Shown here: piece after piece, positions 52,301 through 55,300 of the stretch
How positions within the stretch are numbered: the stretch's first letter is position 1
Layout: each line of letters begins with the position of its first letter
From: Lingula anatina
Lineage: Eukaryota > Animalia > Brachiopoda
DNA: 64,000 nt
Direction: 5' to 3'
Assembly (NCBI GenBank): GCA_051362555.1
Contig: CM120642.1
Span: 12,834,001 to 12,898,000, forward strand
The notes under the pieces: generated by a model
Database searches by the model: none
Told to the model about the DNA's origin: nothing
What the model saw: the letters and a program-made list of their open reading frames with translations, nothing else
Translations under genes and position numbers: made by a program

Positions 52301-55300
52301 GGCGCCGGCATCGGCATCGCCATCGCCATCGGCGACGACAGACGCAGGTGATGGCAATATGTACAGACACATCTGTGTCTGTACATAAAAAAATTCTACA
52401 ATGACTTTGACTATGTACAATGGTCTCTATTGTTAAATCAACCTTATCTCTCGATGTTTTTCAGTGTTATCAAACTCTGAAGTTATAGCTATCAGCACAC
52501 AGGTATCTTCCCTATTTATATGTAACTTATCTACACAGCCATTTTTAAATTATTGAAGCTATTCATTCTGGCCCTAGGCTAAGAGGGGCGAGACAGAAAT
52601 TCATTACTGACTTTACTACCTGCCTGGCACATAACTGCAAGTATTTCCTGGCCTAGATCATACTGTGTAAGATTATATGTACAGGAAGCATTTAAAACAG
52701 GGAAAAAACTTCCATCCAACTTATATAAATATGCAGAAATGTATACATGTATAAAAACATACTTTTATGTACAATAGTCTAAGCCATACCTTGAAAAAAA
52801 CCTGTTTATTAACAACTACCCTTTTTTTAATTTAACCAATTTGTTTTGCTATATACTTTTTCCTTGGTGCATTTTTTGTTTTTTAACATACTAAAGTATC
52901 TTTAAAAAAAAACACACACACACACAGTACCCCCAGCCATCTCTCCCCCACCCCAGTAAAAAGGGGGTGGGCCAAAACCATCTACTGCGAACAACAGATT
53001 TCCCTTTTATAAAGTATAAAACTATAAAGATGAACCTAGTTTCTAGCCCTTTATCGTATATTACTACTATCTGTTGCAGTTTTAAAATAAACCATTTAAA
53101 AAATCATTAATTATTTCTGACATTCCACACACGATTCTAGGCTGAGTGTATCTGACATACATCTTACCATCTGTGCCTGTAGCATGCCTTGCTCATTGTA
53201 TTTGGCCATGCCAGTGATGAAGGCCGACCTGTCTACAAACTTGGTGTCCATGTTGGTGTGATATACACAGAGCATGGACTGGGACTGCACCCGGGGCTGG
53301 TACTCGTCCCACATCAGGAGCTTAAACTCATCAAAATCTGGCTCCTTTTTGTATTCCGCCACCTCCCCGGATGCCGTTGTCTCCTCGACGGCACCCTCCT
53401 TTCCTCTCTCCATCCTACCGTTTCTACTCTCTATGTCTGCGTTATGTCCACTTTTTGCCTCTGGAATTCCAGGCTGTGGCCCCGGTAGAGGGGGACCCCT
53501 CGAACTGTCACTATTGGCACCCTCTAGGGGTGAGGGTGGGGGTGGGAGAAGTGGCGAGGGTGGAGGTAACAGAGGGGATGGTGGGGGTGGGCGCGCTTGG
53601 TTACTAGGGGGCGACAGCCACAGCTGATCTGGCCTGTCTCGGTCAGGTGGTGTGACATCTATAGCCACTCCAGCTTCAGTTTGAACAGTCTTATCACCAT
53701 CCTGGCTGCTCTGTGTTGTGGTCCTGTCAGCATCAGTATTGTTTGGTTGTGTGTGCTGGTGGAGACCTCTCTCATTTATGACCTCGTCATTATCAGTAGG
53801 TGGAGAGGATATGTTTGTGACTGCGCCAGGAATACTAATGGCATCAGGTGTGTGGTTTATAGCCTGCTTTTGTTCACAGTCCTGTTCACCACTGGCTATG
53901 GCAGTCGTACCAGGAGGAGGAGAAGGAGGTGGTGACGGTGCTAGTGGTGACGGTGCTAGGGGTGACGGAGGAGGAGGAAGACCACCACTGCTGGAAGCAC
54001 CCCCAATGGACAGCGCCTGAAGCATCCCGTCGAGGTCCAGGTCTAGGTCCAGCTGTGGGGGTGGAGGCAACATTCCATCTTCATTCAAATCCATGCTTGT
54101 TTTTTCCTTCGGTAAGTTTTTTTATTCCTTTTTTCCCAACTGTCTGTGTACTATATATCTTGACTTCACTTCTGCAGCAAGTTCTGTCTGTATTTCATAG
54201 TCCTTGTACTCCAACGGAAATGAGGTGGGTGTAACCCTTCATCAACTTTTTTATTCGGAACCAAACAATCATTTTCTCCACAGTTAAGTGACTTAATATA
54301 TACATGCACAAAGACAGACTGTTTTCACATCACCGTATAGTATCATGCAGTAATCAAGTTCCTCCTTTCTATTTCTCCGACAACTGCACTGACAAGGTAT
54401 TTCAGTGACCACATGTTACATACATGTATTTTGTTGATATATTGACAGCAGAAGCTTTGGCACTTAGACGTATTAGTTAAAACTTCTGGTGCTCCTTAGT
54501 ACATAATGTAAATCCTCTGTGTAGCTAGTTATACTGTCAAATTGTACTGATATTCATATGAGTTGATGTGAAATATAACTTAAAACCAATTTCTTCATTA
54601 GTACAAGTAGCCTGTAGGTACATATTCTTAACCTTATTTCAGGAACTTGTCTTTATGTGCATATCCGCAAAATTGGTCCGATTTCCTTTAACTAGCAGCT
54701 TTAACATTAATTAGGAAAGGAAAATTACAATAGAGAACTTGTAACAATCCACTTTCAACTTCCTCATTTATGTTCCAGCTGGACCAACCCCTTACACTGC
54801 CTTCACTGCATCAACTTCACAAATATTGTAAAGATTTCTCTTCTCTAGCTGCCAGTGCCCCAATTAGGGAAAATTCCACAATGTAATTGTATAAATCCAC
54901 TGTAACTTCCTGAATCAAGTTTTATCTAGGTACTCTTGTTCTCACTTTGACAACGCCTCCACGAATCAGCTTCCTGGGTGCAGCTCACCAGAAAAAGACA
55001 CAACTCTGTCCCTCTCCACTGCCTCTCATTTGAATTCAGCAGGGGTTGACAAGATGAATCACCCCTTTGATCTATCAATCACAACTTGCCCCTCTGAGAT
55101 CTTCTTTTATCTCCAATTCGGTAGGAAATTTCTGGGCTAAAAACAACCTGGTACACCTAATATTTCAGTCCTACTGTTCCCAACTACTTCAAAACAATCT
55201 GCCATATAAATGAGCTAAGGGTTGTACTGACAAGTTTTGGGGGGAGGGGGAGGTGGTAGGGGTGCATACTTAAAGGCAATATACCAAAATTATATTTTTA

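What the first reader, a model, noticed from the sequence alone, without database searches (positions are those of the whole stretch)
53168..54094. Duplicated alternative first exon gives CYFIP a ~265-aa polyproline N-terminal arm
Seen: inside intron 1 is a 309-codon exon ending in [44 protein letters not shown], an ungapped paralog (19/44 identical) of the end of exon 1a, with a donor at the homologous phase-0 position, so it can splice to exon 2. It replaces the conserved N-terminal segment with a disordered acidic region containing LPPPP and repeated PPPSP(L) motifs. Established: CYFIP is the Rac1-sensing scaffold of the WAVE regulatory complex, where the proline-rich regions normally come from WAVE and Abi; (F/L)PPPP binds Ena/VASP EVH1 domains, polyproline binds profilin, SH3 and WW domains, and PPPSP is a proline-directed kinase motif as in LRP5/6. 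Inference: a ~1500-aa isoform from a second promoter that recruits actin elongation or signalling factors directly. I know of no described CYFIP isoform like this.
Basis: partly seen in the sequence, partly recalled or inferred. Interest (0 to 1): 0.88.

Follow-up and report, generated by a model that had tools for sequence, protein, structure and literature searches.

The report
Brachiopod CYFIP with proline-rich alternative head
In the lamp shell Lingula, the gene for the actin-control scaffold CYFIP carries an old duplicate of its first coding exon, transcribed in some samples, that is predicted to swap a highly conserved N-terminal helix for a 265-residue proline-rich tail, likely giving a WAVE-complex variant that would recruit Ena/VASP proteins; databases already list the predicted isoform.

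Summary
Exon 1b (54094-53168, minus strand) is a 309-codon frame; its last 44 codons are an ungapped paralog of canonical exon 1a (19/44) and end at the same phase-0 donor. RefSeq already predicts this isoform in Lingula anatina (X1-X3, 1502-1509 aa, joined to exon 2). The duplicate is old and constrained (pN 0.35, pS 0.73). RNA covers it in 1 of 4 runs at exon-2 depth, weakly in one, and not in two. I did not see the splice junction itself. New here: homology starts exactly at residue 27, where loop L1 begins. In the human WAVE complex L1 threads an internal cavity, so the isoform keeps the threaded loop and drops helix alphaA, which the other CYFIPs I surveyed retain. No ortholog of 1b was found outside Lingula; mites and an ostracod model have unrelated arms placed in front of an intact alphaA. 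The scan had no earlier CYFIP note. Verdict: real, annotated but unstudied, apparently lineage-restricted variant.

The parts
53168..54094 (-). Exon 1b coding part, 309 codons: alternative first coding exon of CYFIP
   Evidence: RefSeq X1-X3 begin with it; RNA depth
53801..54094 (-). Arm residues 1-98: two LPPPP motifs, acidic DL repeat, predicted helix 21-28, first proline cluster; no amino-acid difference from RefSeq
54056..54070 (-). LPPPP motif 1 (residues 9-13) with acidic flanks; candidate EVH1 ligand
   Evidence: motif definition PMC8789275
53966..53980 (-). LPPPP motif 2 (residues 39-43)
53534..53548 (-). LPPPP motif 3 (residues 183-187); RefSeq has a fourth motif 15 residues upstream that this window lacks
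53330..53800 (-). Arm residues 99-255: variable linker holding all 17 substitutions and the 2-residue indel against RefSeq
53168..53299 (-). Residues 266-309: paralog of canonical residues 27-70 (loop L1 and start of helix H1a)
53160..53167 (-). Phase-0 splice donor GTAAGA of exon 1b, at the position homologous to the exon 1a donor
54095..55387 (-). Transcribed region upstream of the 1b ATG (5' leader or pre-mRNA; start not mapped); 15 upstream ATGs in 54720-54095
58376..58585 (-). Exon 1a coding part, canonical N-terminus (helix alphaA, L1, start of H1a)
59177..59208 (-). CpG-rich promoter region with CCGGAAGT and GCCGCCATGTT (ETS- and YY1-like, labels recalled) and a predicted non-coding exon donor at 59177
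48337..48414 (-). Exon 2, shared by both forms
25145..48414 (-). Shared CYFIP body, 26 exons, 1191 aa, including the Rac1 A and D site regions

Best explanation
Exon 1b is an old, constrained duplicate of CYFIP's first coding exon that is transcribed in some samples and is predicted to splice to exon 2, likely making a 1500-residue CYFIP that would still build the WAVE regulatory complex (WRC) but with a disordered LPPPP-bearing arm in place of helix alphaA. Shown: the paralogy, the matching donor, purifying selection, sample-dependent RNA, and retention of residues 27-70 with loss of 5-26. Inferred: (1) splicing 53168 to 48414 (about 0.9); (2) translation into a functional protein (about 0.75); (3) WRC incorporation, because the retained part is the loop that threads the complex and the Rac1 sites lie in shared exons (about 0.6); (4) the arm leaves the complex where alphaA does and binds Ena/VASP EVH1 domains through its N-terminal LPPPP motifs, adding filament-elongation sites to those of Abi and WAVE in one tissue or stage (about 0.45).
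For: Ungapped paralogy, 0 of 100,000 shuffles. pN 0.35 against pS 0.73; pN reached pS in 2 of 2,000 bootstraps. Three RefSeq models join 1b to exon 2. Run X7: 14 reads at 54041 against 10 at exon 2, depth in all four bins from 53022 to 54373 and none in 52684-53021; X1 4 against 20, X4 0 against 5, X2 0 against 8 (Fisher p 1e-4 for X7 against the rest). Profile match is confined to residues 27-70 (0 of 20,000 shuffles) and absent for 5-26 (p 0.09). Cryo-EM text: alphaA is 5-22, L1 is 27-56 and winds through an internal cavity; the A site is 91-108 and 176-215. CYFIP1 expressed from pEGFP-C vectors (N-terminal tag, recalled) co-precipitates WRC subunits. Three FP4 motifs against 0.39 expected (p 0.006). 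Residues 1-98 and 256-309 show 0 differences from RefSeq against 17 in 99-255. Drosophila Abi recruits Ena through two LPPPP motifs.
Against: The junction was not seen: 15 of 191 joint rows were printed, all from an intronic repeat. RefSeq XP models are predictions and their support is not visible to me. Six ATGs lie in the 280 bases upstream of the start that X7 covers as deeply as the frame. AlphaA is near-invariant elsewhere and 1b keeps 2 of its 12 near-invariant positions; it also changes 10 of 22 in residues 27-70, so WRC fit may be impaired. No ortholog was found in another species. The middle arm differs by 11% between two Lingula sequences against 0.25% for the shared body (3 of 1191), and one LPPPP and one PPPSP differ. 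The invariant first 98 residues could be a shared haplotype block (any gap this long: p 0.02). LPPPP binds EVH1 more weakly than FPPPP, and the core motif alone is an over-simplification. Read counts are small and conserved exons may lose reads to the tool's filter.
Confidence: 0.45

Rival explanations
1. Expression switch with a passenger arm. The exon is kept because an internal start needs its own copy of L1 and H1a to make working CYFIP in one tissue; the arm is mostly a neutral disordered leader.
For: Constraint is clear on the 44 paralogous codons. Residues 99-255 vary about 45-fold faster than the shared body. Second-cluster motifs differ between sequences. RNA is sample-dependent.
Against: An in-frame start next to residue 266 would suffice, yet 265 codons stay open and the one indel keeps the frame. 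Residues 1-98 are invariant and FP4 motifs are enriched.
Confidence: 0.24
2. WRC-loosened or WRC-free CYFIP. Without alphaA and with an altered L1, the long form assembles poorly or gives a complex with changed autoinhibition. It would act as a Rac1 sink like CYRI, or in the FMRP/eIF4E translation role (recalled), with the arm setting its location.
For: AlphaA is ordered in the WRC and of canonical type in the non-Lingula proteins surveyed. 1b has no alphaA match and no helix is predicted there. N46K, A64G and T65M change fully invariant positions. CYRI shares the DUF1394 fold, which starts at residue 59.
Against: L1, the part buried in the assembled complex, is what was conserved. AlphaA was not seen in an earlier EM map of an assembled WRC. 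I found no test of alphaA deletion.
Confidence: 0.22
3. Decaying duplicate or leaky transcript: a remnant exon annotated from noise, with little protein made.
For: No junction seen; no reads at 54041 in 2 of 4 runs; many upstream ATGs; no ortholog found.
Against: Synonymous sites are near saturation (dS about 2.8) with no stop, no frameshift and an intact donor. The frame is open in two diverged Lingula sequences. Depth matches exon 2 in X7.
Confidence: 0.07

Closest known systems
RefSeq Lingula anatina CYFIP isoforms X1-X3 (XP_013390576.1, XP_013390577.1, XP_013390578.1)
   Same: Same exon, same start, same join to exon 2; 94% identical over the exon.
   Different: Automatic predictions only; 17 substitutions and a 2-residue indel against this window; no paper found on them.
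Canonical CYFIP1/Sra1 in the human WRC (PDB 3P8C and related entries; cryo-EM preprint 10.1101/2022.05.10.491380)
   Same: Exon 1a matches residues 4-69 at E 4e-23; 1b keeps L1 and the start of H1a; the body is shared.
   Different: 1b lacks alphaA (5-22) and adds 265 disordered residues.
N-terminally extended CYFIP models of mites (Varroa X1/X2, Tropilaelaps) and the ostracod Darwinula
   Same: 173-209-residue acidic, proline-enriched arms on CYFIP; Darwinula has 3 FP4 motifs. The two mite arms are homologous to each other (0 of 1,000 shuffles).
   Different: They sit in front of an intact alphaA with no sign of exon duplication. No homology to the Lingula arm (288 and 225 of 1,000 shuffles; Darwinula 19 of 1,000, one of 6 pairs tested, driven by proline blocks). 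The Darwinula model also carries FBPase domains and may be a mis-joined gene.
Ena/VASP recruitment to the WRC through Abi and WAVE proline motifs (PMC4165403)
   Same: LPPPP motifs in a disordered part of a WRC subunit.
   Different: There the motifs are on Abi or WAVE and binding is tested; here they are on CYFIP and untested.
Alternative exons born by tandem exon duplication (general class, recalled)
   Same: Paralogous exon, homologous donor, saturated third positions; the same gene has a second, internal duplicated pair.
   Different: The duplicate lost its first third and gained about 800 bases of new coding sequence.

Membership tests
CYFIP/Sra1 family | DUF1394 (PF07159) and FragX_IP (PF05994) domains | tested here: met
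   Both precomputed for P0002; the window's 27-exon model differs from RefSeq X6 at 3 of 1261 residues.
CYFIP/Sra1 family | N-terminal helix alphaA (5-22) and LPDxQP segment | tested here: not met
   Long form keeps 2 of 12 near-invariant positions in 5-26; profile score not above shuffles. The short form has it.
CYFIP/Sra1 family | Loop L1 (27-56) and start of helix H1a | tested here: met
   0 of 20,000 shuffles for both parts; 12 of 22 near-invariant positions kept; helix predicted at 289-308.
CYFIP/Sra1 family | Incorporation into the pentameric WRC and Rac1 response | not testable with these tools
Duplicated alternative exon | Paralogy, same phase and homologous splice site | tested here: met
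Duplicated alternative exon | Purifying selection since duplication | tested here: met
   pN 0.35, pS 0.73 over 44 codons; 2 of 2,000 bootstraps reverse it.
Duplicated alternative exon | Spliced to the common downstream exon in RNA | tested here: inconclusive
   Exon covered in X7 and joined in RefSeq models, but the junction was not among the 15 of 191 joint rows printed.
Alternative promoter first exon | Own transcription start upstream of the exon | tested here: inconclusive
   Reads reach about 55387; no CpG-rich stretch there; acceptor-like sites of ordinary strength exist upstream.
Ena/VASP EVH1 ligands | [FWYL]Px(hydrophobic)P in a disordered region, often several, with acidic flanks | tested here: met
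   3 motifs against 0.39 expected; definition; low-confidence coil model.
Ena/VASP EVH1 ligands | Measured EVH1 binding | not testable with these tools
   Needs a binding assay.
LRP5/6 PPPSPxS/T motifs (definition recalled) | S or T two residues after PPPSP | tested here: not met
   0 of 5 PPPSP motifs.
WW (PPxY) and profilin (long proline run) ligands (definitions recalled) | PPxY, or runs of more than four prolines | tested here: not met
   No PPxY; longest run is four.

The most novel reading that the evidence does not exclude
Lingula builds a second, tissue-specific WAVE complex whose Rac-sensing scaffold has traded the conserved alphaA helix for its own Ena/VASP-binding arm, and mites and an ostracod gained similar arms independently. 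CYFIP's N-terminus would then be an unrecognised, repeatedly used docking point for tuning the complex, and the Lingula form a natural alphaA-deletion experiment.
Probability: 0.25. Interest if true: 0.75.

Novelty: new variant of a known kind. Interest (0 to 1): 0.5.

Why it matters
CYFIP's first 70 residues are highly conserved across the animals surveyed, and the role of helix alphaA is open: it was first assigned to a neighbouring complex and proposed to cluster WRCs, then reassigned to its own complex. A natural, long-maintained isoform that keeps the buried loop and discards alphaA makes that question directly testable in CYFIP1/2 knockout cells. If the arm binds Ena/VASP, it puts elongation-factor recruitment on a subunit not known to carry it. 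The limits are that it is so far seen in one genus and is already listed in RefSeq.

Tried and rejected
No whole genome was held. Run search: no RNA holder listed; nine same-species raw-read runs were offered and 4 of 9 were laid, about 6% of X1, X2 and X4 and 25% of X7. Exon 1a use could not be measured, since only its last 35 bases were in the lay. Pfam gave no family for either exon alone. Ortholog searches for 1b: 1 hit among 4 candidates of 542-2000 aa; no candidate at 169-541 aa; 34 HMMER hits among 1.84 billion representatives, 32 CYFIP first-exon fragments without an arm (37-49% identity) and 2 unrelated repeat proteins; the Atlas gave no usable hit. No other brachiopod or phoronid was named among the hits, so absence there is untested. 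Rejected: a degenerate alphaA at residues 253-265 (p 0.10; no helix). Rejected: a shared 'PPPP-acidic-helix' motif with the mite arms (p 0.15 and 0.26). Rejected: an acceptor at 54494, top under a 7-site matrix but outside the top 8 under the 26-site matrix. The first 32 residues have no meaningful PDB match. The duplication could not be dated: 1b is 17-21/44 identical to all canonical sequences. The 2010 WRC crystal paper was not held. No complex prediction was run, for lack of partner sequences.

Full report
Observation. It lies between canonical exon 1a (58585-58376, 70 codons, matching human CYFIP1 4-69 at E 4e-23) and exon 2 (48414-48337). The last 44 codons of the two exons align without gaps at 19/44; no shuffle of 100,000 came near the score. 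Both end in phase 0. The 1b donor is the best of 83 GT sites nearby and of ordinary strength for this gene.

Identity and prior annotation. The tail of 1b found one protein, RefSeq Lingula anatina CYFIP isoform X3. Of the 7 cluster members read, three (X1-X3, 1502-1509 aa) begin with exon 1b and continue into exon 2, three (X4-X6) begin with exon 1a, and one is a fragment. A 27-exon model of the window differs from X6 at 3 of 1261 residues, so the window is Lingula anatina or a very close relative. The isoform is already in databases as an automatic prediction. Searches for CYFIP with alternative first exon, Lingula, N-terminal extension, mutually exclusive exons and brachiopod listed no paper on it; the library lacks most subscription papers.

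Selection. Over the 44 paralogous codons, identity by codon position is 27, 33 and 15 of 44. pS is 0.73 and pN 0.35 (corrected dS about 2.8, dN 0.47), and pN reached pS in 2 of 2,000 bootstraps. A copy decaying that long would be expected to have lost its frame or donor (inference). Against RefSeq, 1b has 17 substitutions and one frame-keeping 2-residue indel, all in residues 99-255; residues 1-98 and 256-309 are identical. This suggests a constrained head, a free linker and a constrained tail. It rests on two sequences and a shared haplotype block is not excluded; one synonymous change in codon 18 in run X7 is slight evidence against that.

Expression. Four of nine listed RNA runs were laid. 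In X7, all four bins from 53022 to 54373 have depth (1.5-5.1), the intron bins 52684-53021 and 48966-49979 have none, and 14 reads cover 54041 against 10 at exon 2. X1 has 4 against 20, X4 0 against 5 and X2 0 against 8 (p 1e-4 for X7 against the rest). Use is therefore sample-dependent; tissues are unknown and counts small. The junction was not seen: an expressed repeat at 50656-52683 filled the 15 of 191 joint rows printed. Depth continues upstream of the ATG, falling off toward about 55387. Six upstream ATGs lie in the well-covered part. CpG observed/expected is 0.75-1.05 at 58750-60250 and 0.06-0.44 at 54000-56500, so a second promoter is possible but not shown.

What is swapped. In the human WRC cryo-EM work (10.1101/2022.05.10.491380, passages read), helix alphaA is residues 5-22, and loop L1, residues 27-56, winds through an internal cavity to helix H1a; the Rac1 A site is 91-108 and 176-215. 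The similarity of 1b starts at residue 27. Against a profile of 57 distinct canonical N-termini from 158 proteins, 27-56 and 57-70 beat all 20,000 shuffles while 5-26 did not (p 0.09). 1b keeps 12 of 22 near-invariant positions in 27-70 (10 of 13 in 39-62) and 2 of 12 in 5-26. The long form thus keeps the threaded loop and drops the helix. The boundary could also be the breakpoint of the duplication. An AlphaFold model of 1b alone (mean pLDDT 58, pTM 0.21; homologues align only to the tail) shows coil apart from helices 21-28 and 289-308. The passages I read do not say what alphaA touches; figures and supplements were not seen and may bear on this.

Distribution. Of 305 proteins held, 256 had the exon-2 anchor and at least 50 residues before it. 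248 matched the alphaA and LPDxQP patterns; the other 8 were the three long Lingula forms and five canonical-type starts that are truncated, carry an insertion or vary at one position. These come from the best 120 of 583 hits and members of 21 clusters. A HMMER scan of 1.84 billion representatives with the last 81 residues found no arm-bearing relative. Long forms exist elsewhere: Varroa (206-209 extra residues), Tropilaelaps (173), Darwinula (198, 20% proline, 3 FP4 motifs, a doubtful fused model) and ticks (30-77). All keep alphaA. The mite arms are homologous to each other but not to Lingula's, which points to independent gains.

The arm's motifs. Three LPPPP motifs fit the EVH1 pattern (PMC8789275, passages) against 0.39 expected from composition (p 0.006; RefSeq has four). 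The first has acidic flanks, which raise affinity. Drosophila Abi links Ena to the WRC through two LPPPP motifs (PMC4165403, passages).

Mechanism. Most likely a tissue- or stage-specific long CYFIP enters the WRC, with L1 threaded as usual, the Rac1 sites intact, and the arm leaving where alphaA would, to bind Ena/VASP (0.45 for the whole chain). EGFP-tagged CYFIP1 from pEGFP-C vectors still co-precipitates WRC subunits (PMC7348743, passages), and alphaA was not visible in an earlier map of an assembled complex (PMC5614565, passages). Rivals are a passenger arm on an expression switch (0.24), a WRC-loosened form that works like CYRI (0.22; PMC7543656, passages), and a decaying copy (0.07). 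No binding or assembly step was tested here.

Verdict. Real, old, transcribed, annotated but unstudied, and so far confined to Lingula. It is a new variant of a known kind (alternative exon by duplication; CYFIP isoform). The scan's earlier notes held nothing on this sequence or place; the word search gave three notes on other genes.

Noticed in passing
window 44756-44679 and 44246-44169 (-): A second duplicated exon pair in CYFIP: two 78-base exons, 52/78 identical (21, 21, 10 by codon position), used alternatively in RefSeq isoforms.
   Followed up: partly
window about 34512-34492 (-): 21-base alternative microexon (HHKDIS segment) present in RefSeq X1, X2 and X4 only.
   Followed up: partly
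window 54374-55387: Runs X1 and X2 have sense reads here (depth 3.2 and 4.3 in 54374-54711) but none over the 3' half of exon 1b; a short exon, early termination or pre-mRNA, unexplained.
   Followed up: no
window 50650-52700, with copies at 22059-23083 and 26337-29513: Interspersed repeat family, very abundant in RNA runs (depth up to about 2,600, reads mostly 90-95% alike, so likely from other loci).
   Followed up: partly
window 3-864 and 2345-21612: 142-base tandem satellite, about 136 copies, 92% matches; the many 90-126-aa frames there are repeat artefacts.
   Followed up: partly
window 59208-59177 (-): CCGGAAGT and GCCGCCATGTT motifs in a CpG-rich stretch, followed by a donor; the ATG in the second motif would open a short upstream frame if spliced to 58710.
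   Followed up: partly
proteins P0179-P0181, P0098, P0036: Mite and ostracod CYFIP models with long acidic, proline-enriched N-terminal arms; Varroa and Tropilaelaps share a TEH[LI]YCE[LV]SP motif at the arm's end.
   Followed up: partly
proteins P0310-P0339 (unnamed): Many genomic fragments diverge right after the residue matching CYFIP 70, suggesting that this phase-0 intron position is old; one (P0319) starts at the QP of residues 27-28, hinting at an intron there in some lineage.
   Followed up: no
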